DNA from: a bacterium
Lineage (GTDB): Bacteria; Patescibacteriota; Minisyncoccia; Minisyncoccales; UBA10102
DNA: 64,000 bases
Direction: 5' to 3'
NCBI GenBank assembly: GCA_030647485.1
Contig: JAUSJT010000003.1
Span: forward strand, 9,092 to 73,091
Numbering within the stretch: position 1 is the stretch's first letter; each line of letters begins with the position of its first letter. Shown piece by piece: positions 2,446 to 38,323 of this stretch. Below the pieces are notes generated by a model. It saw only the letters and a list, made by a program, of their open reading frames with translations, made no database searches and was not told the DNA's origin. Both the position numbers and the translations under genes were made by a program.

Positions 2446-2808
2446 ATGAAAACTATTTTACTCATTGAAGACGAGTCTGCTCTCCAAAAAACCATTGGAG
2501 ACGCGTTGAGCCAGGAGGGATTCTCTATTGCTTCAGCGCTTGACGGAGAAACAGGATTACGACTTGCGAAAGAAAAGCGCCCAGACGTCATTCTTTTAGA
2601 CCTCATATTGCCCAAGGCAAACGGGTTTGATGTGTTAAAATCCCTCAAAGAGCAGGAAGAAACAAAGGACATTCCAGTTGTGGTGCTCACAAATCTAGAG
2701 AGCATGGAAGACATTCAAAAAGCCCTGGATCTGGGAGCCATGACCTATCTTGTGAAGTCAAACTACACGCTTGAAGAAGTCGTGGAAAAAGTGAAACAAG
2801 CATTATGA
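2446..2808 (+). CDS. Stand-alone response regulator receiver domain (CheY-like)
   Basis: Receiver signature LLIEDE...DVILLDLILP...VVLT...K in a 120-aa protein. Confidence 0.85.
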   Translation: MKTILLIEDESALQKTIGDALSQEGFSIASALDGETGLRLAKEKRPDVILLDLILPKANGFDVLKSLKEQEETKDIPVVVLTNLESMEDIQKALDLGAMTYLVKSNYTLEEVVEKVKQAL

Positions 2809-4559
2809 GGGTTGAAGACCAACAATTAATGGCGTTTCTGCTGGATGCGGGGCTCGTGGGCATGCAGGAATTGCGGGACGCAGAGAAAAAATCCAAGAAG
2901 CTGCAAAAGCGCTTGGCAGATGTGCTGGTTGCAGATAATCTCTTATCCCAAGAAGAGCTTATTAAAATGGAGGCGTACATTCTGGGCATTCCGTTTGTCA
3001 ATCTGGAAAAAGAGACCCTAGATCCCGAAGTGTTAAAAATAGTCCCAGAGCCGATTGCCAGGTCTCACAATATTGTGGCATTCCGGAAAAAGGGCCAGGA
3101 TTTGGAAGTTGCCATGCTGGATCCAGAAGACCTTGCCACCATCGATTTTATAAAAAAGAAGTCAGATTTAAAAATTCTCCCCCGGCTTACTACTCCTGCA
3201 AGTATGACTCAGGTGCTGCGTCAGTACTCCAAGACCCTGGAGGCAGAATTCGGAGACATTATCCAACAAGAGGTGGGAGGAATAAAGACTCGAAAGGAAA
3301 GCGACGGAACAGAAAAGAATGCGAAAGAAGAGCTTGAAAAGGCCGCAGAAGAGCTTCCTATCATACGAATAGTAGATACCCTGCTCAAGCACGCAATTCT
3401 GCAGCGTTCGTCCGATATTCACATTGAGCCCACGGAAAAAGAAGTGATTGTGCGCTATCGTATTGACGGAGTGCTCCGTGACGCTATGGTTCTTCCCAGG
3501 GCCGCTACCTCTGGTATTGTTGCAAGGATTAAGGTACTTTCAAATTTACAGCTTGATGAGCACCGCCTGCCTCAAGATGGGCGCTTTAAGGTAGAAACAG
3601 ATGAGTATAAATATTCTATCAGGGTTTCTATACTCCCCGTGTTTGACGGAGAAAAGATCGTTATGCGCTTGCTGGCTGAAACCGCAAAGGCGTTTACCCT
3701 AGAACAGATAGGGTTGCGGGGAGAGGCGCTAGAAGACGTGCAACGAGCATTGAAAAAACCAGTTGGCATGCTCTTGGTCACGGGTCCTACGGGGTCTGGG
3801 AAAACCACAACCTTGTATGCCATGATGGAGATACTTTCCACTCCCCAGGTGAATATCTCTACCGTAGAAGATCCCATAGAGTACCGCATGCCCAGGGTGA
3901 ACCAGACTCAGGTGAATCCTAAAATAGGGTTTACCTTTGCAACGGGATTGCGCTCTTTGGTGAGGCAGGACCCAGACATCCTTATGGTAGGAGAGATTCG
4001 AGACGAGGAAACCGCTTCCCTGGCTATAAACGCTGCTTTGACGGGACATCTTGTGCTTTCCACTTTGCATACCAATAGCGCGGCTGGCGCCATACCCCGC
4101 TTGATTGATATGGGAGCCGAACCGTTTCTCATTTCCTCAACGTTGAATGTCATAGTTGCCCAGCGTCTGATACGCCGTCTCTCTGAAGAAAAAGGTGCGT
4201 ATAATCTTTCTGACAAAGAAATCGCAGACCTCTCTTCATACTGCAACGTAGAGAAGGTCACAAGCATTCTGAAAGATGAGAAGCTCTTAAAGCCAAAACA
4301 AAACCTTGGAGATATTTCTTTCTGGCGGCCGAAAGCCACCAAGGAAAATCCTGACGGGTATAAGGGAAGGATGGGAATTTACGAAGTGCTGCCCGTGACA
4401 GAAACGATCAAGAACCTCATCATCCAGCGCACGGACGCAGACGCAATCGGAGAGCAAGCGCAGAAAGAAGGCATGAGAACCATGGTGGAAGACGGATTTA
4501 TAAAAGCTGCCCAAGGCATTACTTCCATTGAAGAGGTGCTCCGCGTCATCACTGAATGA
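2805..4559 (+). CDS. pilB: Type IV pilus assembly ATPase PilB/GspE (locus 1)
   Basis: Walker A GPTGSGKTTT, Asp box, His box, N-terminal GspII domain. Confidence 0.9.
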   Translation: MRVEDQQLMAFLLDAGLVGMQELRDAEKKSKKLQKRLADVLVADNLLSQEELIKMEAYILGIPFVNLEKETLDPEVLKIVPEPIARSHNIVAFRKKGQDLEVAMLDPEDLATIDFIKKKSDLKILPRLTTPASMTQVLRQYSKTLEAEFGDIIQQEVGGIKTRKESDGTEKNAKEELEKAAEELPIIRIVDTLLKHAILQRSSDIHIEPTEKEVIVRYRIDGVLRDAMVLPRAATSGIVARIKVLSNLQLDEHRLPQDGRFKVETDEYKYSIRVSILPVFDGEKIVMRLLAETAKAFTLEQIGLRGEALEDVQRALKKPVGMLLVTGPTGSGKTTTLYAMMEILSTPQVNISTVEDPIEYRMPRVNQTQVNPKIGFTFATGLRSLVRQDPDILMVGEIRDEETASLAINAALTGHLVLSTLHTNSAAGAIPRLIDMGAEPFLISSTLNVIVAQRLIRRLSEEKGAYNLSDKEIADLSSYCNVEKVTSILKDEKLLKPKQNLGDISFWRPKATKENPDGYKGRMGIYEVLPVTETIKNLIIQRTDADAIGEQAQKEGMRTMVEDGFIKAAQGITSIEEVLRVITE

Positions 4560-4603
4560 CGCGAAATCCGAAGCACGAAGCACGAAATCCGAAACAAATT
4601 CAA

Positions 4604-5935
4604 ATGGCTGAAATTCAAATCTCTCAAATAAATACGAGAATCAATCAGTCAAGAGTTCTTTATTTTGAGAGTAATATTATTGCATTGTTTAATGGTATTA
4701 AGGTTGATCCCTCATGGTCTTTTTCTGATAAAACAAGAAAAGACACGGCGTACATTACTCATGGTTATCATCGATACCCTGCAAAGTTTATTCCTCAAAT
4801 CGTTTCCCGCTTAGCTGATAAATATACAAGCGAGGGCGATTTAATTGTTGATCCATTCGGTGGGTGCGGGACAACACTTGTTGAATCAAAAGTAATGGGG
4901 CGGTTATCAGTGGGCGTTGATATAAACCCCGTTGCTGTGCTTATCACAAAAGCTAAAATTACGCCGCTTGACCCAGCAAAAATTGAAGAAGTATTTACAG
5001 CACTGGAAGAGAAATTAGGCAGTTATAGTAAGAATACAAAAGTGAAAGCTCCAGAACACGAACGGATTGATTATTGGTTTAAGCAGGAAGAAAAGAGGAA
5101 ACTTGCTTTCATCTTTGCCGAGATTTCAAAAATAAAAGATCGGGATGTGAAAGATTTCCTTTATTGCGGGTTTTCAAACATTCTAAAAAATTGCTCTATT
5201 TGGCTGCAGAAAAGCAACAAACCAACAAGGGATTTTGCGAAAAAGCCGTCTGACCCGATACCAACATTTTTCAGACAAGTAAAAATGATGATGAGGGGCA
5301 ACGCAAGATTTTATGAGTTGTTAAAGCAGAAAAATCACCTTGAAGTGCCAAGCCAAGTTTACTGTACCGACGCAAGGACGATTCCTGTCAAAAATAATTC
5401 TGTTAGCTTAATTGTTACTTCGCCGCCATATGTTACTTCCTACGAATACGCCGATTTGCACCAGCTCACCGCTCTGTGGTTAGAATACACAAAAGATTTA
5501 AGTGATTTTCGCAAGCGTTTTATTGGTACTTCTTATCACAACAAAAAAGATTTGACTCTCAATAGCACACTCGCAGAAAATATCAGAAAATACTTGCTAG
5601 AAAAGGACAAGAAAACCGCCGAGGAGGTTTCTACATATTTTAGCGAGATGAACCAAGTATTTATTGAAATGAAAAGAATGCTAAAAAAAGGTGGTAAAAC
5701 TTGTATTGTTATCGGTAATACGAGCCTGAAAGGCGTTGAGATACTCAATGCGGAAGTTTTTGCTGAACAATTGCAAAACTTGGGGTTAAAGATCGCCGAT
5801 ATTGTTAAAAGAGAAATACCATCAAAAAATTTACCGTCTGTTAGAGATGAAAAAACTGGCAAGTTTGCAAGTATAACCGACAAAAACAGAGTTTCTGCTT
5901 ATCCGACAGAATATATTTTAGTAATGGAAAAATAA
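4604..5935 (+). CDS. DNA methyltransferase (N6-adenine or N4-cytosine, alpha-like motif order). The ORF could start at 4556.
   Basis: Motif I DPFGGCGTT and motif IV TSPPY. The 4556-4603 extension is coded by the flanking repeat and looks non-native. Confidence 0.8.
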   Translation: MAEIQISQINTRINQSRVLYFESNIIALFNGIKVDPSWSFSDKTRKDTAYITHGYHRYPAKFIPQIVSRLADKYTSEGDLIVDPFGGCGTTLVESKVMGRLSVGVDINPVAVLITKAKITPLDPAKIEEVFTALEEKLGSYSKNTKVKAPEHERIDYWFKQEEKRKLAFIFAEISKIKDRDVKDFLYCGFSNILKNCSIWLQKSNKPTRDFAKKPSDPIPTFFRQVKMMMRGNARFYELLKQKNHLEVPSQVYCTDARTIPVKNNSVSLIVTSPPYVTSYEYADLHQLTALWLEYTKDLSDFRKRFIGTSYHNKKDLTLNSTLAENIRKYLLEKDKKTAEEVSTYFSEMNQVFIEMKRMLKKGGKTCIVIGNTSLKGVEILNAEVFAEQLQNLGLKIADIVKREIPSKNLPSVRDEKTGKFASITDKNRVSAYPTEYILVMEK

Positions 5936-5939
5936 AACT

Positions 5940-6608
5940 ATGACAATTAAAGATCTTATTAAAATTTACGAGACGAAAAAGAAAAAACACGGTGTACAAG
6001 CATACCGACATATTTCAAATGTTCTAAAAGAAGCAAAGGAACAACACGAAAAAGATTTTAAGGGAGATGACCACGAGCAATCTTGGCGAGCGTTCAAAGG
6101 TAAAAACCTGGAGAAGTTGATTGAATATATTATCACGGATGAAGTTAATGCTTTAGGCTTGCAAGTGGTAAATGGGAATATTCTTGAAAGAACAAATGGA
6201 TCAAATCTTTCAAAGGAGTTGAGTTTGGTAAAAAGAAATTTGATTATTGATTATGGCGAATTTGGTTCACATTTGCCAGATGTTGACTTGATTATTTATG
6301 ATCCCAAAACCAGCAAGGTTGTCGCTGTATTGTCTAGTAAAGTCACCCTGCGGGAAAGAATCGCCCAAACTGGTTATTGGAAAATCAAACTTGCTTCTGA
6401 TGAGGCGACAAAACACATTAAAGTTTATTTTGTAACCCCGGACGAGGATGGAACACTTACAATCAAAACCCCAACGAAGAAAGGACGTGCAATTGTAGAG
6501 GTGGATACGGATGGTAGTTATGTTCTAAGTGAGACGGACATTGAAGAAAGCGACAAGGTAAAAATGTTTGATAAGTTTATTGATGATCTGAAAAAACTTT
6601 TAAAGTAA
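5940..6608 (+). CDS. Putative type II restriction endonuclease (PD-(D/E)xK-like)
   Basis: Sits between two methyltransferases with short gaps. DVDLIIYD...VLSSKVTLRER resembles a PD-(D/E)xK core. Assigned from context. Confidence 0.4.
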   Translation: MTIKDLIKIYETKKKKHGVQAYRHISNVLKEAKEQHEKDFKGDDHEQSWRAFKGKNLEKLIEYIITDEVNALGLQVVNGNILERTNGSNLSKELSLVKRNLIIDYGEFGSHLPDVDLIIYDPKTSKVVAVLSSKVTLRERIAQTGYWKIKLASDEATKHIKVYFVTPDEDGTLTIKTPTKKGRAIVEVDTDGSYVLSETDIEESDKVKMFDKFIDDLKKLLK

Positions 6609-6620
6609 TTTTAAAAACAT

Positions 6621-8132
6621 ATGAAAAAACAAGATATGCAAAAATACGCAAAAGCATTAAAAAGAGGTCATTTAGCAAGCCTTTCAGTTGATGATATTGT
6701 TGAACTCATAAAAAGAGCGGATGGGAAATGTTATTTGTGTGAGGAAAAAATAGACCTTGACAATATCGGGAAGATTGATGGTGACAAGAAAAATTCAAAC
6801 GGTCCTCTTAGTGTTGAAAACTTATATCTGACACATAAAAAGTGTAATATTCAAAAAAGCAACGAACCCGTTTCGATAGTTAAAGCTAAATTAGCTTTCT
6901 CTAGGTTTTACGAAAAGAAAGATTCTGTTTCATTTAATGACTTTTTAGATGAGTATGTTCCGAATAATAGAAAAACCGTAAGATTTAAAATCACCAACGA
7001 TATCGCATATTTAAAGTTTGGAGAAGACGAAAAAAATACACCTATATTTACTGACCCTGCTACTAAAATACAGTATTTCTTTTATGAATTACCGATGGAT
7101 TACATATATAATGATGATGAGGTGCAACCAAGACCAATCGATAAATCTCACCTGTTTAAAATGATGGCCGATTTTCAAATCCATCCCGTACATGAGCCAT
7201 CAGATTGTCGTATTGTTGATAATAGTAGAATAGATGGTAATTATAAAGAAGCTAAGTTACTACAGTTTGATGGTCAACATAAAAGTGCTGCTCAGATATT
7301 AATAGGTCGGACGAAGTTACAATTTAAAATCTACATTGCACCATCTATAAAATTGATAAGAGAATTGGTTATTATCATTCAGAATGAAATTAAGAAAAAA
7401 GCTGTTTTGGAATCAATTGTGATAAAACGCATGAGCGCATCTTATATGGACAGATGGAATGAGTATATTGAATCGCCAGGAGAACATTCAGAGGCAGGCC
7501 TAATTGAATCTTTACCTAATCAAGAGAAAAAACTAGCTAAAAAAGAGCTAATGAATGCAGTTTATAGTAATATAATAGACAATAAAGAATTAGAGTTAAA
7601 GGAATTTGTTACCACGGGGCAAACTAGAAGTGAAAAAAATAGACCCATTTCTATTAATTTACTAAAGCAAATAATAAATAATTTTGTTTATAGTAAACCT
7701 AACGATGTTCCTGTTGGGGAAAAAGACTCAAGAGAAATTGAAGCAGAAAACACCACTAAGTTTTTAAACATTATCTCAGAGGCAATTTTTGGGGAACTTA
7801 CCCCAATCCAAAGGAATCGCCAAGATTTACCAGAAAAGATATTGAGGATTTGGAAATCTGGTTCTGTAAAATTTTGGGCAAATATATTAAAGAACCTAAT
7901 CAGTCACAGGTTGAATATTATTGCTGAAGATGACAAAGAAAGAATTTTTCAGCGTAAATTGACTGCAAATGATTGGGACGGAATCGGGAAAACCGTAAAT
8001 AGACTTTTTTCTCATTCGGTTTGGGGTAAAATTGATCAAAATTTAGACAAAATACTAAATTCAAACGATCTTAAGGCTGCAACAAGAGAGTTGGCTAAAA
8101 AAGGATTGGACACCGATTTCTTGATTAAATAA
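6621..8132 (+). CDS. 503-aa protein with N-terminal degenerate HNH-like motif; putative nuclease or specificity component of the R-M island
   Basis: CYLCEEK...IDGDKKNSNG...NLYLTHKKCNIQK matches the HNH CxxC...DH...N...CN pattern, but the catalytic His is replaced (DGD). Tightly packed in the operon. Confidence 0.4.
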   Translation: MKKQDMQKYAKALKRGHLASLSVDDIVELIKRADGKCYLCEEKIDLDNIGKIDGDKKNSNGPLSVENLYLTHKKCNIQKSNEPVSIVKAKLAFSRFYEKKDSVSFNDFLDEYVPNNRKTVRFKITNDIAYLKFGEDEKNTPIFTDPATKIQYFFYELPMDYIYNDDEVQPRPIDKSHLFKMMADFQIHPVHEPSDCRIVDNSRIDGNYKEAKLLQFDGQHKSAAQILIGRTKLQFKIYIAPSIKLIRELVIIIQNEIKKKAVLESIVIKRMSASYMDRWNEYIESPGEHSEAGLIESLPNQEKKLAKKELMNAVYSNIIDNKELELKEFVTTGQTRSEKNRPISINLLKQIINNFVYSKPNDVPVGEKDSREIEAENTTKFLNIISEAIFGELTPIQRNRQDLPEKILRIWKSGSVKFWANILKNLISHRLNIIAEDDKERIFQRKLTANDWDGIGKTVNRLFSHSVWGKIDQNLDKILNSNDLKAATRELAKKGLDTDFLIK

Positions 8133-8801
8133 ATGCAGATTGAATCAACAACGCTTTGGGATTTTCCGAGGCAGAATTATGGAGACAAGCCACACGGAGA
8201 TAATAAATATAGCGGCGTTACGCCGGCTTTTGTTATTTGGAATTTACTCCAACGATATACAAAAGAAGGCGATTTGGTAGTTGACCCAATGTGCGGGAGT
8301 GGAACTACTATTGATGTAGCAAACGAACTGAACCGAAAAGTGATTGGCTATGACTTAAACATTGTTCGCCCCGATGTAATCAAGAATGACTCTCGGAAGA
8401 TCCCGCTTCAAGACAATAGCATTGATTTCGTCTTTATTGATTCCCCTTATTCAGACAACATCAAGTATTCTGATGACGAAAAGTGTATTGGAAAAATATC
8501 TTGTGAGAAAACAGAGTTTTACGATGAATTAGAAAAAGTCGCCTCTGAAATCGCTCGGATTTTGAAACCTGAAAAAGCGATGGGTTGGGTTATTGCCGAT
8601 CAATGGATCAAAAGGAAATTCACTCCCGTTGCATTTTTGCTTTGGCAGAGATTAGAAAAGTATTTTAAGCCGATTGATATTGTGTGTCTTAGTCGACACA
8701 ACCAGACATCGAACACGCAAATTTGGCATAATAGAGCAAGACAGTTTAATTTTTATTTGAGAGGTTTCAAATATTTGTTTATTATGAGAAAATCAACGTA
8801 G
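8133..8801 (+). CDS. Small DNA methyltransferase (N4/N6 family)
   Basis: Motif I DPMCGSGTT and motif IV FIDSPY. Confidence 0.8.
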   Translation: MQIESTTLWDFPRQNYGDKPHGDNKYSGVTPAFVIWNLLQRYTKEGDLVVDPMCGSGTTIDVANELNRKVIGYDLNIVRPDVIKNDSRKIPLQDNSIDFVFIDSPYSDNIKYSDDEKCIGKISCEKTEFYDELEKVASEIARILKPEKAMGWVIADQWIKRKFTPVAFLLWQRLEKYFKPIDIVCLSRHNQTSNTQIWHNRARQFNFYLRGFKYLFIMRKST

Positions 8802-8882: not shown

Positions 8883-10106
8883 ATGCCCACGTACTTTTAT
8901 ACCGCAGCAACTATTCAGGGGGAGAAAGTCACGGGAAGTGAGAACGCAAAAAGCGAGCGGGACCTTGCGCGCTCTTTGCATGAAAAGGGGTATGTCCTTT
9001 TGAAGGTAGCTTCCGGAGAGCACGCAGATGCCAAGCGTACATTTGTACAAATGCTTGAGGGCCTGTTTTCCGTCCCCCTCTCAGAAAAACTGCTGTTTAT
9101 GAGAAATCTGAAGGTTATGGTGCAGGCCGGAGTGCCGCTCCCTAAAGCTCTTGAAATTCTTTCTTTGCAAACAGGATCAAAGCAATTAAAGAGTGCGATA
9201 GACGACATGCGAGAGAAGGTGATGCAGGGAGAAATGCTGTCTGTCGCTATGTCTCGGCATCCCGCAGTATTCTCTGATTTGTTCATAAATATGATCAGGG
9301 CGGGAGAGGAGTCCGGGACTATGGAGGGAGTCCTTTCTCACTTAACCCTGCAGTTAGAACGCGAGCATGATTTGAGGTCTAAGATCCAGAGCGCCTTGAT
9401 GTATCCTAGCGTTGTGGTGGTTGCGATGATCGGGGTTGGCACCATCATGTTGGTGAGCGTAGTTCCCAATCTGGCGAAAACCTTTAAGGAATTAGGAGTG
9501 GAATTGCCTCCGACTACCCGCTTTGTGATAGGTCTGGGGGAGTTTCTCTCGCATCAATGGTACATAGCTCTTCTTGTATTCTTAGCGGCTGGGTTTGCGC
9601 TGTATCGGGCCTTGAAAAGCAAGAAGGGAAAGTGGATTGTCGACGGACTCGTGCTGCGGCTTCCCCTATTTTCCTCCCTTATCCAGAAGATCAACTCCGC
9701 CTTTTTTGCTCGTACCCTTAGTTCTCTTATAGGGGCTGGTATCCCTATCGTGAAATCTCTTGAGATCACGAGCACGGTGTTGAACAACGGGCGTTTTCGA
9801 AAGGCCCTGGAGGATGCGGCAGAACAGGTGCGCAAGGGATCAAAGCTTTCCCAAAGCTTGAAGAGTTCTGGTAAGCTATATCCCTTGGTTGTACTCCAGA
9901 TGCTGGAAGTCGGAGAAGAAACAGGGAAAACAGGAGAAATCTTGGCCAAGCTTGCCGATTTCTTTGAGGAGGAGGTGAACGCCATCACCAAGAATTTCGC
10001 CTCTGTTATTGAGCCCGTGCTCATGCTGTTCATGGGGGCCATGGTTGGATTCTTTGCGGTATCCATGATCCAGCCCATGTACAGCGTGCTGGGGTCTATC
10101 AAATGA
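8883..10106 (+). CDS. pilC: Type IV pilus inner-membrane platform protein PilC/GspF (locus 1)
   Basis: Two T2SF repeats, three TM segments, 407 aa. Confidence 0.9.
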   Translation: MPTYFYTAATIQGEKVTGSENAKSERDLARSLHEKGYVLLKVASGEHADAKRTFVQMLEGLFSVPLSEKLLFMRNLKVMVQAGVPLPKALEILSLQTGSKQLKSAIDDMREKVMQGEMLSVAMSRHPAVFSDLFINMIRAGEESGTMEGVLSHLTLQLEREHDLRSKIQSALMYPSVVVVAMIGVGTIMLVSVVPNLAKTFKELGVELPPTTRFVIGLGEFLSHQWYIALLVFLAAGFALYRALKSKKGKWIVDGLVLRLPLFSSLIQKINSAFFARTLSSLIGAGIPIVKSLEITSTVLNNGRFRKALEDAAEQVRKGSKLSQSLKSSGKLYPLVVLQMLEVGEETGKTGEILAKLADFFEEEVNAITKNFASVIEPVLMLFMGAMVGFFAVSMIQPMYSVLGSIK

Positions 10107-32584: not shown

Positions 32585-33706
32585 CTATGGATTGGTGCTT
32601 GCTGGCGGAAGTAATGCAGGTTGTCGAGGCCTGTTTTCCTGGGTGACACGCCACTGGATCAGGTGTTCTATACGCATCATGGCTTGATGCGTTTCCCGGT
32701 CCATGCGTGAGAGCCTTCCAAATGTGGCTCGGAGACCGCCGTCCCCCTTTGGTTCAAGGAAGATAGGTGGAATCTCATAGCAGTCGTCACCTTCTGCTGC
32801 TGTTGTTATGGCCTCAGGAAGTGGCGTATCTGCAATGACGCCCATGAGCACGATGGGCATGCTTGGGTCTGGAACGAACCTTCCTAGTAGCACCGCCAGG
32901 AAGCCCGTGTCTTGACCCCCGAACCTTGAGGCGTAGTCCGAGATGACGATAGTCCCCACAACCTCTCCCTGGAGCAGGCGAGTGAGCCCCCGCTCTTGAA
33001 GGTCTGTGGGAAGCGTGCCTTGCTCCAGCAAGGGTTCCAGGCGCGAGAGAAGCTCTTCCTCTTTGCGGCTCTGGTTGCGTACCCTGGAGATCGCCCTGAT
33101 CACAGATGGCCACCCCAGCATGCTTACCTGTAGGTTGCGTTTGGGGTAGTAGTAGGCGTTCTCCCAGTTGATGGCCCTCCATCTCGGCGAGATCCTGCTT
33201 CTCTCTATGTACCCAGTCGTCACAAGACGATCAAGGTACGGGCCCACCACGCTCTTGGTGCGCAGGAATCTGCAGGGCCGTTCAAACATGAACAGCACTT
33301 CCTTCAGCTGCATGGACAGCAGCTGATTTTCCTGGCAGACACCAATAATGTCCAGGATATGCTGGGCGATCGGAGCAACCCTTGCGTCTTGCTGTTTGGC
33401 AAGAGAGCTGATTTTCCCAGACCAGAACTCCCACGCCGCGCTAAAGGTTGCACCATATTGGAGCCACGGAGCAAACCATGCTCTCGTAGCCTCGGCCCTG
33501 CTTTTCAGGGCGATGGCAAGGAACTCAATGCCGAGAGCGTCTCCTTGGCGCACCGCGTCAAAGAACACGTCCGCCTGCCCGAGCGCCTCATCTGCCTCGG
33601 CAAACACCTCGGCTACCTTCGCGGCGACCCCGTTGGAGCTGCCGAGAGCGGCAAGCCTGTTGCCAAGACTGAACCCGGTCTTCTTAGGATCTGTCGACGA
33701 TGTCAT
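32585..33706 (-). CDS. Hypothetical protein, GC-rich (~60% versus ~45% background)
   Basis: Long ORF with normal amino-acid composition. The opposite-strand ORFs are Arg/Gly/Pro-rich, consistent with antisense artefacts. Confidence 0.55.
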   Translation of the reverse strand: MTSSTDPKKTGFSLGNRLAALGSSNGVAAKVAEVFAEADEALGQADVFFDAVRQGDALGIEFLAIALKSRAEATRAWFAPWLQYGATFSAAWEFWSGKISSLAKQQDARVAPIAQHILDIIGVCQENQLLSMQLKEVLFMFERPCRFLRTKSVVGPYLDRLVTTGYIERSRISPRWRAINWENAYYYPKRNLQVSMLGWPSVIRAISRVRNQSRKEEELLSRLEPLLEQGTLPTDLQERGLTRLLQGEVVGTIVISDYASRFGGQDTGFLAVLLGRFVPDPSMPIVLMGVIADTPLPEAITTAAEGDDCYEIPPIFLEPKGDGGLRATFGRLSRMDRETHQAMMRIEHLIQWRVTQENRPRQPALLPPASTNP

Positions 33707-33790: not shown

Positions 33791-33819
33791 TTGACATTTT
33801 CTCTATTCTATTCTATAAT
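33791..33819 (+). promoter_or_regulatory. Perfect consensus sigma70 promoter TTGACA-17-TATAAT
   Basis: ccTTGACAttttctctattctattcTATAATtc, then SD GGAGGG and ATG at 33863. Confidence 0.65.
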
Positions 33820-33862: not shown

Positions 33863-34345
33863 ATGTCTCGAACGTTCGTGTTTGGATACGGAAGTTTGTT
33901 GAATGAGTTGGAGGTTCAGCGAACCCTGCCCGGAAAAGCCATCTTCGGGCACGCTACTCTGATTGGATGGCGGAGGAAGTTCAACAAGGGAGGCCTTGAT
34001 CACCGATACCTCAATCTGGTGCCTGCCAATTCCGAGGTACGTCAGGTAGAAGGAACGTTAATAGAGGTTACGCCAGCGGAATTGGCGGCGTTGGCAAGGC
34101 GGGAACCAGGGTACGAGATGGTGGATGTCACGAGCCAGGTCGTAGCGCCGCCAGAAGACTCCGTAGTCCTCGCTTTCATAGCTCCCTCGTTTGAGAAGCT
34201 CCTCGTCCGCAGGAGCTATCTGGAAAGGATCCGTCCTGGCGTTCCTCCAGAAGAATGGGAACAGTGGCTCCAAGAAACGGATTTTTCTGGGATCTCGACA
34301 GAAGTAGTAGGCATAGAAAACGCCTCCATGGATGAGGAGGGTTAG
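33863..34345 (+). CDS. Gamma-glutamylcyclotransferase-like (GGCT/AIG2 fold) protein, GC-rich copy
   Basis: FVFGYGSL N-terminal motif. About 45% identical to the convergent neighbour at 34433-34891. Confidence 0.7.
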   Translation: MSRTFVFGYGSLLNELEVQRTLPGKAIFGHATLIGWRRKFNKGGLDHRYLNLVPANSEVRQVEGTLIEVTPAELAALARREPGYEMVDVTSQVVAPPEDSVVLAFIAPSFEKLLVRRSYLERIRPGVPPEEWEQWLQETDFSGISTEVVGIENASMDEEG

Positions 34346-34432
34346 TCTAGAACAGGAGCGTATGCTCAATGCCCTTGGATTGTTCTGGTATATCCAGAAT
34401 GCGTCCAAGGGTTTTAATTTATGAAGCGATGG

Positions 34433-34891
34433 TTATGCGTCTTCATCTATTTGAGCTCCTTCAAAATCGGTTTCTTGGATCCATTGCGCTTGTTTCTCAG
34501 GGGGTAGAGCCGCAAGCACAGTATCAAGGTATTTCCTGCTTACTTTTAACCCTCCAAGAGAAGATGCGGCGGCAGCAAAGGCATATACAGCCGTATTGCC
34601 CAAAGGCTTGCTTTCGAGTTTGTTTGTTACATCAATAGCGTTATATCCATGCTCTCTTTTTTTAAGTTCTTCAAATTCTTCTTGCGTGACCTCTACAAGA
34701 ACGCCCTCTACTTTTGAATTGGGTTCTTGCTTAATATTGAGATATCTGTGGTTTTTCCTCCCTGCCTTATTGAACGCGCGCTTGTATCCATTCAGAATGG
34801 CCCAGCTAGTACTATGTTTGCCAGGGAGAGTCTTTTGAAGACTTTCTTCGTTCATGAGGCTTCCATATCCAAATACGTATGTATGATCCAT
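34433..34891 (-). CDS. Gamma-glutamylcyclotransferase-like (GGCT/AIG2 fold) protein, low-GC copy
   Basis: YVFGYGSLMNE...HRYLN...QETDFEG, collinear with the GC-rich paralog. Confidence 0.7.
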   Translation of the reverse strand: MDHTYVFGYGSLMNEESLQKTLPGKHSTSWAILNGYKRAFNKAGRKNHRYLNIKQEPNSKVEGVLVEVTQEEFEELKKREHGYNAIDVTNKLESKPLGNTAVYAFAAAASSLGGLKVSRKYLDTVLAALPPEKQAQWIQETDFEGAQIDEDA

Positions 34892-34895
34892 ATGG

Positions 34896-36419
34896 TTAGA
34901 CCTCTTGTGCTTGCGGACCGAGTTCTTGATCTTGGGGAGACGTCTGGCCCTTCCTTAATGCGTTAGAGAGGTTGGTTATCAACTCTCCGATTTCTGGCTG
35001 TATCGCAAAAGAAGAGGTTGCAATTGACCGTGGAAAGATAAGTTTGAAAAGTCTTGGCACGTTCTGGATTATTCTTCCTCCGATTCGTGGAACGGAATCG
35101 ATGATAAGAAACTCAGAATCATCTTGAAGTTCCCATAAAAATGCTCCCTGCCGCTTATAAGTTAAGGCCTTCTTTGCAGGAGAATAAGAATAGATGCCGG
35201 GAACCAGGGGCAGTTTCATTTCGTAGGCGCCCTTTGGAGTGAGGGAGATATGGGAAACAGGAAGTCGTTGTTTCAATCCTTCATTTACTTTCTCAAAATC
35301 AAAGTTTTCTTTAATCCCAAGATGGGCCATAAGGTGGAAAAACTCCATAGGAGGCACTGTATTCTGTTGAAGAATCATAAAGGAATACACCGGAAGCGCC
35401 CCTGTAAATCTTGGGTTGCATTCTAAGGGTAAGACTTCTTCCGTTTTTGCATCGTACATGAAATCAATCCCAAAAATTCCAAGGAATCCTTTTTGAGCGA
35501 GAAACTCTCCCACTTTTTCTACAATAATTTGCGCTTCTTTTTGCTTCTTTTCTTCCCAAGGGTGAAATCCCCAGTCGTGCCCCAGAAAGACTCCTGTAGG
35601 AAGCTGGCCATGGAGCGCCTCTGGCACGTCAATGAGTTGGAGTTGTAGGGGAGACGTGAGAACACCCATATGCGTAATACAGCCGAGCATTGAAACAGAA
35701 TCCCCTTCTATAAAAGGAGACATCTGTATTTCTGTAAATCGTGTGTCGTTGGAAAGAATATTATGCATCGCTTCCCAATCCCCCTGAGTTTTTATAAAGA
35801 AAGTTCCTTGTTCTCCTGAAACATCAAAATCTGCCCGTTGCACCACCACAGGACGGTTCCAATGACTCAGGAGTTCTTCACATGTTTTTGAAAGAAATTC
35901 TTCCCGTCCTATGCGCCAATCTTCAAGATGCGGCAACCCCAGTTTTTTGATGACTTCGCGAAAGCTTCCCTTGAGGAATACTTCTTGAAAGCTCTCTGGC
36001 CTATTTCCAATCCACTCGAGATGTTGTTCCTCTAGCTTTTTTACAATGGGTGGAGTGGTTTGGTAGAACATAAGCTTGAAAGGGCTGCGCCGAGACTTTA
36101 AAAATGCCTGGAACGCATAGTTGCCAAGAAGATAATTCGTTGCGTGAATTTTAGGAGCTACTTTGGGGAATTTCTCCTCCAGACAAAAGATGGTTGCGTA
36201 TTTTCTAAGCACGTCAAGATCCGCAGTATCTTTTACAGAGTAGATTTGGTAGTTTTGCAGAAAAAGAGAAGGGATGATTCGGGTATATGGCGCAATTCCG
36301 ATGGCAATAATAGTCTTTTCCTGCATTCTTTTTAGGATTTCTTTTATTCCCGGGACCACTTTTTGCCAGGATTGTATAAAATTTGGTCTCATTTGGTTTA
36401 GTATAGGATAAAAATACAA
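34896..36419 (-). CDS. ATP-grasp domain ligase with ~200-aa N-terminal extension
   Basis: C-terminal half carries FGIDFMYDAKTEEVLPLECNPR (ATP-grasp ExN motif). Confidence 0.7.
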   Translation of the reverse strand: MYFYPILNQMRPNFIQSWQKVVPGIKEILKRMQEKTIIAIGIAPYTRIIPSLFLQNYQIYSVKDTADLDVLRKYATIFCLEEKFPKVAPKIHATNYLLGNYAFQAFLKSRRSPFKLMFYQTTPPIVKKLEEQHLEWIGNRPESFQEVFLKGSFREVIKKLGLPHLEDWRIGREEFLSKTCEELLSHWNRPVVVQRADFDVSGEQGTFFIKTQGDWEAMHNILSNDTRFTEIQMSPFIEGDSVSMLGCITHMGVLTSPLQLQLIDVPEALHGQLPTGVFLGHDWGFHPWEEKKQKEAQIIVEKVGEFLAQKGFLGIFGIDFMYDAKTEEVLPLECNPRFTGALPVYSFMILQQNTVPPMEFFHLMAHLGIKENFDFEKVNEGLKQRLPVSHISLTPKGAYEMKLPLVPGIYSYSPAKKALTYKRQGAFLWELQDDSEFLIIDSVPRIGGRIIQNVPRLFKLIFPRSIATSSFAIQPEIGELITNLSNALRKGQTSPQDQELGPQAQEV

Positions 36420-36510
36420 AAAGCGGAAACGAAGAAGAGCTCGGGGGAGTATGGCTTTTGGTTATTATGCCAACTCCCTCCGAGCTCTTTTTGCCCTAGC
36501 TTTTCGCCGT

Positions 36511-37278
36511 TTACTCCGTGGCGACGGGCTTGCAGCTACTCACCGAGATCCTGTGTGTCTTGGGGTCTTCCGTGAACCCCACCTCCACGGCGCTCATGGG
36601 CACGAGAACCTTCATGGGTCCTGGCCCCTCAATGACCGAGAAATGCACGAAGTATCTACTCTCGTGTACCCAGATGCTACCCGTCCCGGTGATCATATTG
36701 AAGTACAGGACGGTTGGTGTCCAAATTGGACGCCAGATGGCAGGATGCACATCGCCTGGGCCTTCTCCAAGGTCTTTGATGAGGGACCAGACAAAGGTCA
36801 TGACCTGGCCCATGCCACGCCAAATGCTGGCGTAGTCGGCGCCCGGATACGCGTGTTCCGGGGCAGATGGGATGAACTGGATCTCCTCAATGGAAGACCC
36901 CACGATCCATCCTTGCCAGATCTTCTGGGCGGTCAGGAAGAACTTTCCCCCTCGCACGACCACCCCAACCTGGATGTCCAGGAAGTGGCGGGTGTTGGGG
37001 TCCAGCAGGATGATGTCGACGTTATCGACACCTTTCTGCCGGGTCATGGGACCGTTGTCGGTCCACCTAACAGGCACCGAAAGGGTGAACCCATCCTGTC
37101 CCATGGTGTGGGGTCTGGACTCGAAGATGGCGAAGGCCTCCTCTCCAGCCGTAACCACAAGCTTAATGGGATCCCCTTGCTTTGGGGCAGAAATCCTCGC
37201 CCAGCTGGCGAATCCAGCTCCTTCCTGCGGACTCTCATTGAGTCCCTCGACCGTGACAGACACTCCCATGAATTCCAT
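36511..37278 (-). CDS. Hypothetical protein, GC-rich
   Basis: 255-aa ORF with balanced composition. The overlapping plus-strand ORF 36451-37305 is Arg/His/Gly/Pro-rich and is rejected. Confidence 0.55.
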   Translation of the reverse strand: MEFMGVSVTVEGLNESPQEGAGFASWARISAPKQGDPIKLVVTAGEEAFAIFESRPHTMGQDGFTLSVPVRWTDNGPMTRQKGVDNVDIILLDPNTRHFLDIQVGVVVRGGKFFLTAQKIWQGWIVGSSIEEIQFIPSAPEHAYPGADYASIWRGMGQVMTFVWSLIKDLGEGPGDVHPAIWRPIWTPTVLYFNMITGTGSIWVHESRYFVHFSVIEGPGPMKVLVPMSAVEVGFTEDPKTHRISVSSCKPVATE

Positions 37279-37340
37279 TGTGTCCTCCTCCCGCTTTTGC
37301 GGTGAATGCTGGGAGAGCTTCTGCTCTCTCGCTGAGCAAG

Positions 37341-37369
37341 ATTATAGCATCTTACCATTCTTTTGTCAA
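37341..37369 (-). promoter_or_regulatory. Perfect consensus sigma70 promoter TTGACA-17-TATAAT on the minus strand for 36511-37278
   Basis: Reverse complement reads TTGACAaaagaatggtaagatgcTATAAT, then SD GGAGGAGG and ATG. Confidence 0.65.
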
Positions 37370-37420: not shown

Positions 37421-38323
37421 ATGAGAATACTTTTAGTGCTTGTGTTTCTCTTTCTTCCTCTTTCAGTATTTGCGCAGATTGCCATCATCAATGAAATCGC
37501 CTGGCCCGTAGAGTCTGCCTATGCGGCAGACCACGGGCTAAAGATGGGAACTGTGATTATTAATGAGGTTGCATGGATGGGGAGTCCAGTTGAAGGTGTG
37601 GACGCAAAGCAGTGGTGGAGATACGAATGGCTTGAGCTTTTCAATGCAAAGGACCAACCCTTGCAGATTGATGGGTGGGCTGTGGATCTGTATAGAGGTG
37701 AGGAACTTTACTTTAAAATTCCCTTAGTAGGGATAGTCCCTGCTTTTGGGTATTTTTTGGTTGGTGCTTCAGATAAGATTCTCCCGCTTCGCGGGATCTC
37801 GCGTAGCGAGACAGGAGTTGATGTGAACTACTCAAACCTCGGAGGTAAATTTTTGAATACTGGCCAGAGGGTTGTTCTATCCAATGCTTCAGGCGTGGTT
37901 GTTGATGAAGTTGATGCAACTTCGGGTTGGCCCGCAGGAGACAACAAAACCAAGCAAACTATGGAGAGGGCCGCAGGTTCTGAGGGCGTATCTGAAGAAT
38001 GGCAGACATCGGCTAAACCAGGGGGAACTCCAAAAGCTCAGAATAGCTCAGGGGTTACTAGAGAAACTGTCAGAGAAATTACAGGTCAAACTAAACCGAG
38101 TTTAGTTAAGGATGAAGTAAAACTTAGTCTGACTAAGGATGAAACAGAAAAAGACCTCTCGCGGTCTTTTCAGTCACGTGTCCCCCTTGTGAATCCTATT
38201 ACCCTTCTTGCGGGGCTTCTGGCTCTGGGGTTTTCTGGGGTTCTGCTGTTGGTGAAGCGCTCTCTGGCGTCTCGGCAGGAGCGTCAGAAGTTGAAACATC
38301 CCGAGAGGAATCTAAGGACTTAA
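37421..38323 (+). CDS. Secreted lamin-tail-domain (LTD) protein with C-terminal TM anchor
   Basis: Signal peptide; INEIAW...EWLELFN LTD signatures in duplicate; C-terminal hydrophobic helix. Confidence 0.65.
   Translation: MRILLVLVFLFLPLSVFAQIAIINEIAWPVESAYAADHGLKMGTVIINEVAWMGSPVEGVDAKQWWRYEWLELFNAKDQPLQIDGWAVDLYRGEELYFKIPLVGIVPAFGYFLVGASDKILPLRGISRSETGVDVNYSNLGGKFLNTGQRVVLSNASGVVVDEVDATSGWPAGDNKTKQTMERAAGSEGVSEEWQTSAKPGGTPKAQNSSGVTRETVREITGQTKPSLVKDEVKLSLTKDETEKDLSRSFQSRVPLVNPITLLAGLLALGFSGVLLLVKRSLASRQERQKLKHPERNLRT

What the first reader, a model, noticed from the sequence alone, without database searches (positions are those of the whole stretch)
33863..36419. ATP-grasp ligase next to two GGCT-like cyclotransferases: candidate gamma-glutamyl add/remove module
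A 507-aa ATP-grasp enzyme (ExN motif in FGIDFMYDAKTEEVLPLECNPR) lies immediately beside two gamma-glutamylcyclotransferase-fold genes. Pairing an ATP-grasp gamma-glutamyl ligase with a GGCT that later removes the group is the logic of BtrJ/BtrG in butirosin biosynthesis. It could equally represent peptide or amine modification, or a small-molecule pathway. The ATP-grasp also carries a ~200-aa N-terminal domain of unknown function.
Basis: inference. Interest (0 to 1): 0.55.

Follow-up and report, generated by a model that had tools for sequence, protein, structure and literature searches.

The report
ATP-grasp ligase with swappable gamma-glutamyl removers
A previously unstudied amide-forming enzyme of ultra-small (Patescibacteria/CPR) bacteria sits beside two gamma-glutamyl-cleaving enzymes here, is paired with other bond-cleaving enzymes in relatives, and almost always follows an unknown protein with a cold-shock domain, which points to an uncharacterised "add and remove a glutamate" module.

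Summary
The window holds an ATP-grasp gene (34896-36392, minus strand, 498 aa) and two GGCT/AIG2-like genes (34433-34891 minus; 33863-34345 plus).

- **N-terminal domain.** The "unknown 200-aa N-terminal domain" is the ordinary pre-ATP-grasp and lid domains. The AlphaFold model aligns end to end with PurK, PurD and biotin carboxylase.
- **GGCT linkage.** It is real but confined to a subclade: 12 of 63 unique related loci. In the other loci the same slot holds an alpha/beta-hydrolase (25 loci) or a PuuD-like C26 gamma-glutamyl hydrolase (2 loci). No locus carries two kinds, and the kinds interleave on the ligase tree. This swapping supports a ligase that makes a gamma-glutamyl amide which the neighbour undoes.
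- **Missed partner.** It combines a novel beta-rich domain with a divergent cold-shock domain. It has its own consensus promoter and a conserved terminator-like hairpin.
- **Butirosin pathway.** No carrier protein or decarboxylase gene is present, so this is not a butirosin-type pathway.

The amine substrate and the role of the partner protein remain unknown. I rate this a new variant of a known kind, of moderate interest.

The parts
37341..37369 (-). Sigma-70-like promoter (TTGACA-17-TATAAT with TG) upstream of the partner gene P1
   Evidence: 12 of 12 consensus matches, extended -10. It lies 63 nt upstream of the P1 start at 37278.
36511..37278 (-). P1: 255-aa conserved partner protein, a novel beta-rich N-domain (about residues 1-175) plus a divergent C-terminal cold-shock domain (about residues 185-250)
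   Evidence: It lies directly upstream and co-directional in 41 of 45 related loci. The AlphaFold model has pLDDT 93.4 and pTM 0.90. For the cold-shock domain: the family profile matches PDB CspLA at E=2e-9, Foldseek matches CspB at TM 0.81, and Pfam CSD hits 9 of 17 homologues. The N-domain has no Pfam hit, no PDB sequence hit and no significant Foldseek hit. Residues conserved at 90% or more are V68, W72, T79, R80, D85, N86, D88, Q103, R109, Q118, A143, P145, W182 and N194. NCBI lists it as MDO8474182.1, hypothetical. A longer antisense ORF (36451-37305, plus strand) is a shadow ORF.
36416..36507 (-). Strong terminator-like hairpin in the 118-nt P1/ATP-grasp spacer, followed by a U-rich tract
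   Evidence: The minimum free energy is -47.2 kcal/mol and the z-score is -6.5. A hairpin of -22 kcal/mol or stronger follows the P1 stop in 43 of 45 loci. The same holds for 34% of regions after the ATP-grasp stop and 43% of random segments. The stems differ in sequence between clades. A hairpin is also present after the non-homologous partner P2, followed by a TATAAT.
34896..36392 (-). ATP-grasp amide ligase, 498 aa (the ORF extends to TTG 36419), member of an uncharacterised CPR-wide family
   Evidence: It passes Pfam ATP-grasp_3 and carries the ECNPR motif. There are 204 close homologues, essentially all from Patescibacteria, and 919 cluster representatives at E<=1e-3 in the wider family. 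The AlphaFold model has pLDDT 88.6 and pTM 0.89. Foldseek aligns it over its full length to PurK, PurD, biotin carboxylase, PurT and an L-amino-acid ligase at 9-15% identity.
34433..34891 (-). GGCT-B: gamma-glutamylcyclotransferase-fold (AIG2/GGACT-like) protein, 152 aa, starting 4 nt after the ATP-grasp stop
   Evidence: Pfam GGACT scores 34.2 bits against a cut-off of 22.8, and ChaC 23.3 bits against 21. The YGSL motif and the RE.GY Glu are conserved. It is 62% identical to the homologue in the same position in L001.
33863..34345 (+). GGCT-A: second GGCT-fold paralogue, 160 aa, convergent with the operon
   Evidence: Pfam GGACT scores 32.3 bits. It is 46% identical to GGCT-B. The motifs are conserved. 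This window is the only locus with two intact copies.
33791..33819 (+). Sigma-70-like promoter (TTGACA-17-TATAAT) upstream of GGCT-A
   Evidence: 12 of 12 consensus matches. It ends 44 nt before the start at 33863.

Best explanation
This is a Patescibacteria-specific three-part module built around an uncharacterised ATP-grasp amide ligase.

**The ligase (inferred).** It activates a carboxylate as an acyl-phosphate and couples it to an amine. The most likely reaction joins the gamma-carboxyl of free L-glutamate to an unidentified amine, giving a gamma-glutamyl amide with a free alpha-amino group.

**The remover (inferred from family chemistry).** The adjacent enzyme undoes that bond. In this window it is one of two GGCT-fold cyclotransferases, which would release the amine plus 5-oxoproline. 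In relatives it is a PuuD-like C26 gamma-glutamyl hydrolase or an S9/S33-like alpha/beta-hydrolase, which would release the amine plus glutamate.

**The partner protein.** The third and most conserved component is P1, a novel polar-pocket beta domain fused to a divergent cold-shock domain. It has its own consensus promoter and a terminator-like hairpin, which suggests a separate transcript. Its role is unresolved. It could act on or bind the gamma-glutamylated intermediate, deliver the amine, or be the ligase's stoichiometric partner.

**Shown here:** gene content, folds, motifs, neighbourhood statistics and the conserved hairpin.
**Inferred:** glutamate as the substrate, the gamma linkage, reversibility and the role of P1.
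For: 1. **An intact ligase.** It has the canonical three-domain ATP-grasp fold plus a C-terminal domain, and the E-x-N-x-R motif is conserved across the wide family.
2. **Tight GGCT linkage.** A GGCT gene lies within 65 nt of, or overlaps, the ligase gene on the same strand in 9 loci; in L007 the gene is disrupted and its larger fragment begins 142 nt downstream. In 2 loci it has moved upstream of P1 but stays in the cluster.
3. **Non-orthologous displacement.**
   - Across 63 unique loci the neighbour is an alpha/beta-hydrolase in 25, GGCT in 12 and C26 in 2, and never two kinds together.
   - In 30 well-flanked loci the counts are 16, 6 and 1, with 7 having none.
   - The kinds interleave on the ligase tree; for example, L001 (GGCT) is sister to L002 (hydrolase).
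   - The hydrolase keeps adjacency in five different arrangements.
4. **Two gamma-glutamyl-specific families.** Two of the three remover families act on gamma-glutamyl bonds. Both window GGCTs pass Pfam GGACT and keep the YGSL motif and catalytic Glu. The best NCBIfam match of the C26 proteins is gamma-Glu-GABA hydrolase PuuD, at 1e-26 to 6e-31.
5. **The wider family points to amino-acid or peptide ligation, and in part to Glu.**
   - It includes fusions to RimK, cyanophycin synthetase, NAGGN synthetase, Zn_protease and MATCAP.
   - A Desulfobacteraceae clade sits between Opp/Dpp ABC genes and an N-formylglutamate-amidohydrolase-family gene.
6. **P1 conservation.** P1 is present in 41 of 45 loci. 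Its conserved polar residues (T79, R80, D85, N86, D88, Q103, R109, Q118) lie on adjacent long beta-strands, as expected for a binding or active site.
Against: - No biochemical data exist. Glutamate and the gamma linkage are inferred only from the neighbours.
- The commonest neighbour, the alpha/beta-hydrolase, has no gamma-glutamyl-specific signature. It is often on the opposite strand.
- Seven well-flanked loci have no remover nearby.
- GGCT enzymes also serve general gamma-glutamyl or glutathione turnover, so the adjacency could reflect shared regulation rather than a shared substrate.
- A cold-shock domain is unexpected in a small-molecule pathway.
- P1 is replaced by a non-homologous protein (P2) in one subgroup.
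Confidence: 0.5

Rival explanations
1. Reversible protein modification. P1 (or P2 in other lineages) is the abundant protein substrate that the ATP-grasp glutamylates, as RimK does to ribosomal protein S6 or TTL/TTLL enzymes do to tubulin. The neighbouring hydrolase or GGCT removes or trims the modification.
For: - The P1-ligase pair is the most conserved feature, found in 41 of 45 loci.
- The partner gene has its own strong promoter and a conserved terminator hairpin before the ligase gene. This layout is typical of a highly expressed substrate gene followed by its modifying enzyme.
- Non-homologous partners (P1 and P2) occupy the same slot.
- The wider family includes fusions to RimK, MATCAP and Zn_protease, which are protein C-terminal add/remove systems.
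Against: - P1 has no conserved C-terminal residue or tail, no conserved Lys and no conserved N-terminus to serve as acceptor.
- Its conserved residues look like a pocket rather than a tag site.
- From established knowledge of the GGCT mechanism, GGCT-fold enzymes need a free alpha-amino gamma-glutamyl group and are known on small molecules, not on intact proteins.
Confidence: 0.2
2. P1 is a regulator. Its N-domain senses a metabolite, and its cold-shock domain melts the terminator hairpin that follows its own gene. That would control read-through into the ligase gene, as in Csp-type antitermination.
For: - A strong hairpin sits between P1 and the ligase gene in 43 of 45 loci, and its stems differ in sequence between clades.
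- P1 carries a cold-shock domain with the RNP2 motif FVHF retained.
- From my own knowledge, E. coli CspA, CspC and CspE act as antiterminators.
Against: - The RNP1 aromatic residues that stack on bases are replaced (KGFGFI becomes ITGTGxI). In distant homologues little of the cold-shock-domain surface is conserved.
- P2 loci, which lack a cold-shock domain, have the same hairpin followed by a TATAAT, so the ligase probably has its own promoter.
- Terminators after genes are not unusual.
Confidence: 0.1
3. The GGCT genes are functionally unrelated neighbours doing general gamma-glutamyl or 5-oxoproline housekeeping. The ligase and P1 do something else, for example peptide or cell-envelope precursor ligation.
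For: - Only about 20% of loci have a GGCT gene.
- The locus sits in a housekeeping syntenic block of S1, FtsH, RluD and L19.
- GGCT-A has its own promoter and lies on the opposite strand.
- Some members of the wider family weakly hit the archaeal pseudomurein Ddl-like model.
Against: - GGCT-B starts 4 nt after the ligase stop, and several homologues overlap the ligase gene.
- In L003 and L054 the GGCT gene moved to the other side of the cluster but stayed within it.
- The mutually exclusive replacement by C26 and by the alpha/beta-hydrolase in the same slot, interleaved on the tree, is hard to explain by chance synteny.
Confidence: 0.15
4. A butirosin-type (BtrJ/BtrG) thiotemplated pathway, in which the ATP-grasp loads and gamma-glutamyl-protects an amine on a carrier protein and the GGCT deprotects the final natural product.
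For: The pairing of an ATP-grasp with a GGCT-fold enzyme matches the BtrJ/BtrG pair. The ATP-grasp steps of the butirosin pathway are described in PMC7183216.
Against: - Five neighbours (the unknown 373-aa, P1 and lamin-tail proteins and the two GGCTs) were scanned with Pfam and are not ACP/PCP, PLP-decarboxylase or BtrH-like genes. The others between 28 and 42 kb read by eye from their translations as Nudix, L19, RluD, FtsH, S1, MBL-fold and GyrA.
- CPR genomes are small, and the flanks here are housekeeping genes.
- The ligase shows no specific similarity to any characterised ligase.
Confidence: 0.03

Closest known systems
BtrJ/BtrG of butirosin biosynthesis (ATP-grasp gamma-glutamyl ligase plus GGCT-fold deprotecting enzyme)
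   Same: An ATP-grasp ligase is encoded with a GGCT-fold enzyme. The logic is to add a gamma-glutamyl group and later remove it as 5-oxoproline.
   Different: There is no acyl/peptidyl carrier protein, PLP decarboxylase, BtrH transacylase or aminoglycoside genes. The ligase has no detectable specific relationship to a characterised ligase. In most relatives the remover is not a GGCT at all. An extra conserved cold-shock-domain protein is present.
Puu-type gamma-glutamylation pathways (PuuA ligase plus PuuD C26 gamma-Glu-GABA hydrolase) and related gamma-glutamyl-amine catabolic routes
   Same: An amine is gamma-glutamylated by an ATP-dependent ligase and later released by a gamma-glutamyl hydrolase. 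PuuD-like C26 proteins sit directly after the ligase gene in L012 and L078.
   Different: From my own knowledge, PuuA is a glutamine-synthetase-fold ligase, not an ATP-grasp. No oxidase or dehydrogenase genes are present. The C26 proteins score below the PuuD cut-off (93-108 bits against 266).
BC/PurK/PurD/L-amino-acid-ligase branch of the ATP-grasp superfamily, including NCBIfam PRK06524 ('biotin carboxylase'-like, uncharacterised)
   Same: The domain order is the same over the full length (Foldseek TM 0.5-0.56 normalised to the query, E about 1e-16). It carries the E-x-N-x-R motif. PRK06524 is the best NCBIfam match for all 48 sampled family members.
   Different: Identity is only 9-15%. PRK06524 scores 73 bits against a cut-off of 684. 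No BCCP or carboxyltransferase partner is present. The neighbourhoods point to amide ligation, not carboxylation.
Ligase/hydrolase pairs acting on peptide tags or polymers (RimK with its peptidase partners, TTL with MATCAP, cyanophycin synthetase with cyanophycinase, glutathionylspermidine synthetase/amidase)
   Same: A ligase is genetically coupled to an enzyme that reverses its product. Members of the wider family are fused to RimK, MATCAP, Zn_protease and cyanophycin-synthetase modules.
   Different: The window protein itself hits none of these families. No conserved acceptor tail is evident on P1.
Bacterial cold-shock proteins (CspA/CspB)
   Same: The P1 C-terminal domain has the cold-shock-domain fold (TM 0.81 to CspB, 27-31% identity) and keeps the RNP2 motif FVHF.
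   Different: It is fused behind a 175-aa novel domain. The RNP1 aromatic residues are replaced. AlphaFold predicts it packed rigidly against the N-domain (pTM 0.90).

Membership tests
ATP-grasp superfamily | Pre-ATP-grasp, B and C domain fold | tested here: met
   The AlphaFold model (pLDDT 88.6) aligns over 450-490 columns with PurK, PurD, biotin carboxylase, PurT and an L-amino-acid ligase.
ATP-grasp superfamily | Mg-ATP binding E-x-N-x-R motif and a Pfam ATP-grasp model above its cut-off | tested here: met
   ECNPR is present at residues 333-337 (507-aa numbering). E, N and R are at least 90% conserved across 48 wide-family members. PF02655 scores 31 bits against 23.2.
   The window protein gives no such hit in Pfam or NCBIfam at E<=1.
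NCBIfam PRK06524 ('biotin carboxylase'-like) | Whole-protein score above the curated cut-off (684 bits) | tested here: not met
   It scores 73.1 bits, covering residues 190-383 only. All 48 relatives are also far below the cut-off.
GGCT/GGACT (AIG2-like) cyclotransferases | Pfam PF06094 above the gathering score | tested here: met
   The two proteins score 32.3 and 34.2 bits against 22.8.
GGCT/GGACT (AIG2-like) cyclotransferases | YGSL substrate-binding motif and catalytic Glu | tested here: met
   FGYGSL and the Glu of RE.GY are present in both window proteins. The Glu is invariant in the aligned homologues; YGSL is altered in L011 (YGDD) and FGSL in L001. The assignment of these motifs as catalytic rests on established knowledge of GGCT, not on a structural test here.
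GGCT/GGACT (AIG2-like) cyclotransferases | Cyclotransferase activity releasing 5-oxoproline | not testable with these tools
   This needs an enzyme assay.
Butirosin-type BtrJ/BtrG pathway | Acyl/peptidyl carrier protein and PLP decarboxylase encoded with the ligase | tested here: not met
   Pfam was run on five of the neighbours (unknown 373 aa, P1, lamin-tail protein and the two GGCTs) and none is a carrier protein or PLP decarboxylase. The other ORFs between 28 and 42 kb were judged by reading their translations: Nudix, L19, RluD, FtsH, S1, MBL-fold, GyrA.
Butirosin-type BtrJ/BtrG pathway | GGCT-fold enzyme encoded with the ATP-grasp | tested here: met
   There are two copies here, and GGCT genes in 12 of 63 related loci.
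Cold-shock domain (PF00313) | OB-fold five-stranded barrel with similarity to the CSD profile | tested here: met
   The family profile matches CspLA at E=2e-9. Foldseek gives TM 0.81 to CspB. Nine of 17 homologues hit Pfam CSD. The window sequence alone does not reach Pfam significance.
Cold-shock domain (PF00313) | RNP1 (K-G-F-G-F-I) and RNP2 (V-F-V-H-F) nucleic-acid-binding aromatic residues | tested here: inconclusive
   RNP2 FVHF is kept. RNP1 is replaced by I-T-G-T-G-x-I, so both Phe are lost. Nucleic-acid binding is therefore uncertain.
Puu-like gamma-glutamyl-amine pathway | PuuD-type C26 gamma-glutamyl hydrolase linked to the ligase | tested here: inconclusive
   It is absent from this window. 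It is present directly downstream in L012 and L078, where Peptidase_C26 scores 1e-56 and the best NCBIfam match is PuuD, below its cut-off.

The most novel reading that the evidence does not exclude
The P1/ATP-grasp/remover module is a new reversible gamma-glutamylation system specific to Patescibacteria. In it a novel-fold protein carrying a cold-shock domain is either the modified target or carrier, or it couples the ligase to RNA. That would make it a previously unknown post-translational or RNA-linked regulatory cycle in organisms with minimal metabolism.
Probability: 0.15. Interest if true: 0.8.

Novelty: new variant of a known kind. Interest (0 to 1): 0.55.

Why it matters
Patescibacteria (CPR) make up a large share of bacterial diversity. 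They have tiny genomes in which a widely conserved, uncharacterised gene pair is unlikely to be dispensable.

This work converts three generically annotated genes into a defined and testable module:
- a distinct ATP-grasp ligase family;
- a partner protein with a domain that has no sequence or fold match;
- a slot in which three unrelated bond-cleaving enzymes replace each other.

The replacement pattern predicts the chemistry (a gamma-glutamyl amide with a free alpha-amine). It also supplies three independent enzymes with which to verify the ligase product.

If the partner protein turns out to be the target or an RNA-linked adaptor, this would be a new kind of reversible modification. If not, it is still a new small-molecule gamma-glutamyl cycle in organisms thought to have almost no such metabolism.

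Tried and rejected
**Families and systems rejected**
- RimK or Ddl membership: no hits.
- Biotin carboxylase or PRK06524 membership: far below the cut-off, and no BCCP or carboxyltransferase context.
- Butirosin-like thiotemplated pathway: none of the neighbours scanned with Pfam, or read by eye, is a carrier protein or decarboxylase.
- Defence-system or phage origin: no PADLOC hits, and only GGCT hits in PHROGs.
- The N-terminal domain of the ligase as a novel domain: rejected by the model and Foldseek.

**Ideas about P1 rejected**
- P1 as a C-terminal-tail acceptor in the manner of LysW, S6 or tubulin: the C-termini are not conserved and there is no conserved Lys.
- P1 and P2 as distant homologues: hhalign probability 0.8%.
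- The plus-strand ORF 36451-37305 as the real gene: rejected, because the homologues, the cold-shock-domain profile and the pLDDT 93 model all belong to the minus-strand frame.

**Searches that led nowhere**
- Fold of the P1 N-domain: Foldseek against the PDB found only the cold-shock domain and low-probability START/lipocalin-like noise. BFVD gave nothing meaningful.
- Literature searches for this family, for PRK06524, and for ATP-grasp with AIG2, cold-shock domain or Patescibacteria found nothing relevant.
- The Iyer et al. amidoligase paper is not held.


Full report
**1. What is in the sequence**

- The ATP-grasp ORF runs 34896..36419 on the minus strand (507 aa from a TTG).
- Alignment with homologues, inspection of the DNA and the NCBI gene call place the real start at ATG 36392. 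That gives 498 aa (MDO8474181.1).
- It passes Pfam ATP-grasp_3 (31 bits against 23.2) and carries the quoted ECNPR motif.
- GGCT-B (34433-34891, minus, 152 aa) starts 4 nt after the ligase stop.
- GGCT-A (33863-34345, plus, 160 aa) is convergent with it.
- Both pass Pfam GGACT/AIG2-like (34.2 and 32.3 bits against 22.8) and are 46% identical to each other.
- Both keep the YGSL motif and the Glu of RE.GY.

**2. The "unknown N-terminal domain"**

An AlphaFold model built on 18 homologues is confident (pLDDT 88.6, pTM 0.89).
- Residues about 35-135 form a beta-alpha-beta Rossmann-like unit. They are followed by the lid (B) domain, the catalytic C domain and a C-terminal domain.
- Foldseek aligns 450-490 columns with PurK, PurD, biotin carboxylase, PurT and an L-amino-acid ligase (E about 1e-16 to 1e-17, 9-15% identity).
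- The N-terminal 200 residues are thus the ordinary pre-ATP-grasp and B domains.

No characterised family claims the protein.
- It gives no RimK or Ddl hit.
- Its best NCBIfam match, PRK06524 ("biotin carboxylase"-like), scores 73 bits against a cut-off of 684.
- The CPR family profile finds nothing in PDB sequences.
- A profile of the wider family finds only generic ATP-binding-domain similarity.

**3. Distribution**

The close family (204 hits, 42-82% identity, 480-500 aa) is essentially confined to Patescibacteria. The named sources are Wildermuth-, Staskawicz-, Ryan-, Nomura-, Adler- and Doudnabacteria and Paceibacterota.

An exhaustive search finds 919 cluster representatives at E<=1e-3, of which 121 are at E<=1e-30. 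Most keep the same full-length architecture at about 25-35% identity.
- Sampled members all have PRK06524 as their best NCBIfam match, below its cut-off.
- Some are fused to RimK-like, cyanophycin-synthetase-like or NAGGN-synthetase modules, or to Zn_protease, MATCAP or GNAT domains.
- A Desulfobacteraceae clade sits between Opp/Dpp ABC-transporter genes and an N-formylglutamate-amidohydrolase-family gene. One relative lies beside an L-amino-acid ligase and a circularly permuted ATP-grasp.

The wider family therefore looks like amino-acid or peptide amide ligases.

**4. Neighbourhoods: the key result**

I fetched 39 genome loci and 46 metagenome loci. I scanned them with profiles built here and removed duplicates, leaving 63 unique CPR-type loci.

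*The partner protein.* The most conserved neighbour is not a GGCT gene. It is the 255-aa ORF directly upstream of the ligase (window 36511-37278, minus), which I call P1.
- Of 45 loci with at least 1.2 kb of upstream sequence, 41 have P1 immediately upstream on the same strand.
- Two have a non-homologous 222-233-aa protein, P2, in that place.
- Two have neither.

*The remover.*
- A GGCT gene is adjacent in 12 loci. Ten have it directly downstream on the same strand, nine of them overlapping or within 65 nt; the tenth, L007, carries a disrupted copy. Two have it upstream of P1.
- In 25 loci the cluster instead contains an S9/S33-like alpha/beta-hydrolase, in five different arrangements.
- In 2 loci (L012, L078) the gene directly downstream is a Peptidase_C26 protein (Pfam 1e-56). 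Its best NCBIfam match is the gamma-Glu-GABA hydrolase PuuD, at 1e-26 to 6e-31.
- No locus carries two of these kinds.
- In 30 well-flanked loci the counts are 16 hydrolase, 6 GGCT, 1 C26 and 7 none.
- On a neighbour-joining tree of the ligases, the GGCT-linked and hydrolase-linked genes interleave. For example, L001 (GGCT) is sister to L002 (hydrolase), and the C26 locus L012 is sister to the hydrolase locus L040.

This is non-orthologous displacement within a single functional slot.

**5. What the displacement implies (inference)**

Two of the three interchangeable enzymes belong to families that cleave gamma-glutamyl amides.
- From established knowledge, the GGCT mechanism is attack of the free alpha-amine of the glutamyl group on its gamma-amide, releasing 5-oxoproline.
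- The ligase product should therefore be an N-unsubstituted gamma-glutamyl amide: free L-Glu joined through its gamma-carboxyl to an amine.
- The ligase would form a gamma-glutamyl phosphate and pass the group to the amine. The neighbour would then release the amine again.

The specific butirosin analogy does not hold. That pathway needs a carrier protein and a PLP decarboxylase (PMC7183216), and none of the neighbours scanned with Pfam or read by eye is either.

The amine is unknown. Polyamines, amino acids or a protein amine all remain possible.

**6. The partner protein P1**

P1 has no Pfam or NCBIfam hit of its own. An alignment of 17 homologues gives a very confident model (pLDDT 93.4, pTM 0.90).

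*C-terminal domain.* The last about 65 residues form a cold-shock domain.
- The family profile matches Listeria CspLA at E=2e-9.
- Foldseek gives TM 0.81 to CspB.
- Nine of 17 homologues hit Pfam CSD.
- RNP2 (FVHF) is retained. RNP1 (KGFGFI) is replaced by ITGTGxI, which loses both base-stacking Phe residues.

*N-terminal domain.* The first about 175 residues are all-beta followed by two helices.
- There is no significant match in PDB sequences, the Foldseek PDB library or BFVD.

*Conservation.* Across 42 diverse homologues, the residues conserved at 90% or more are V68, W72, T79, R80, D85, N86, D88, Q103, R109, Q118, A143, P145, W182 and N194.
- The polar ones lie on adjacent long strands, as in a binding or catalytic pocket.
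- C-termini, N-termini and lysines are not conserved. This argues against P1 being a tail-type or Lys-type acceptor.

**7. Transcription signals**

- A perfect TTGACA-17-TATAAT promoter with an extended -10 lies at 37369-37341 (minus), upstream of P1.
- Another perfect match lies at 33791-33819 (plus), upstream of GGCT-A.
- The 118-nt spacer between P1 and the ligase gene folds into a hairpin of -47 kcal/mol (z = -6.5), followed by a U-rich tract.
- A hairpin of -22 kcal/mol or stronger follows the P1 stop in 43 of 45 loci. The same holds for 34% of regions after the ligase stop and 43% of random segments. Many of these hairpins have classic T-tails, and the stems differ in sequence between clades.
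- P2 loci show the same hairpin followed by a TATAAT.

The partner gene therefore looks like its own, probably strongly expressed, transcription unit that is nevertheless held next to the ligase gene. This fits a stoichiometric partner or substrate. It could also allow Csp-type antitermination. I rank both below the small-molecule add/remove model, but neither is excluded.

**8. Verdict**

The ligase/remover logic is supported. The unknown N-domain claim is wrong. GGCT linkage is restricted to a clade. The main partner was missed. The butirosin membership test was not met.
- The genes are annotated only generically in GenBank, and I found no literature on the family.
- I classify it as a new variant of a known kind: an ATP-grasp ligase paired with a reversing enzyme. 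The unresolved element is a novel-domain plus cold-shock-domain partner.
- The most valuable product of this analysis is a concrete biochemical prediction, together with three orthogonal enzymes to test it.

Noticed in passing
window 4556-8801: This is a low-GC island (GC 0.34-0.40 against about 0.46). It encodes two DNA-methyltransferase-like proteins (459 and 222 aa), a 222-aa protein and a 503-aa protein. It is inserted between a PilB/GspE-like ATPase gene (2805-4559) and a PilC/GspF-like gene (8883-10106). It looks like a restriction-modification island inside a type IV pilus operon.
   Followed up: no
window 36451-37305 (+): A 284-aa ORF lies antisense to P1 and is longer than P1 itself, so a naive longest-ORF gene caller picks it. 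Homology, the cold-shock-domain profile and the AlphaFold model all support the minus-strand frame. This is a shadow ORF in a locally GC-richer stretch.
   Followed up: yes
window 32585-33706 (-): A 373-aa orphan (NCBI aa, MDO8474178.1, hypothetical) lies between GGCT-A and FtsH. It has no Pfam, NCBIfam, PADLOC or PHROG hit and no homologue in any of the 89 related loci. The local GC is 0.52. It is a lineage-specific insertion into the otherwise conserved ligase-GGCT-FtsH order.
   Followed up: partly
window 37421-38323 (+): A 300-aa lamin-tail-domain protein (Pfam LTD, 6e-11) has an N-terminal signal-like segment and a C-terminal hydrophobic anchor. It lies between the S1 gene and P1. Homologues hold the same position in L001, L011 and L013.
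   Followed up: partly
L011 7537-11485; L058 6028-8929: Two loci carry two ATP-grasp paralogues of this family. In L011 they flank P1. In L058 they are in tandem after P1.
   Followed up: no
L011 11472-11981; L007 7838-8420: Some linked GGCT genes look degenerate. The L011 copy has YGDD in place of YGSL. The L007 copy (and the same locus as L053) is split into two overlapping ORF fragments.
   Followed up: no
L005 6345-9527; L035 2384-5716: The FtsH gene downstream of the module is a single ORF of 1060-1110 aa. Its two FtsH-homologous halves are separated by about 450 aa of extra sequence, possibly an intein or a large insertion.
   Followed up: no
L012 9227-9928; L040 7204-7872: In the Doudnabacteria-like subgroup, P1 is replaced by an unrelated 222-233-aa protein, P2. 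The two P2 proteins are 34% identical to each other, have no Pfam hit and lack a cold-shock domain. P2 is also followed by a terminator-like hairpin.
   Followed up: partly
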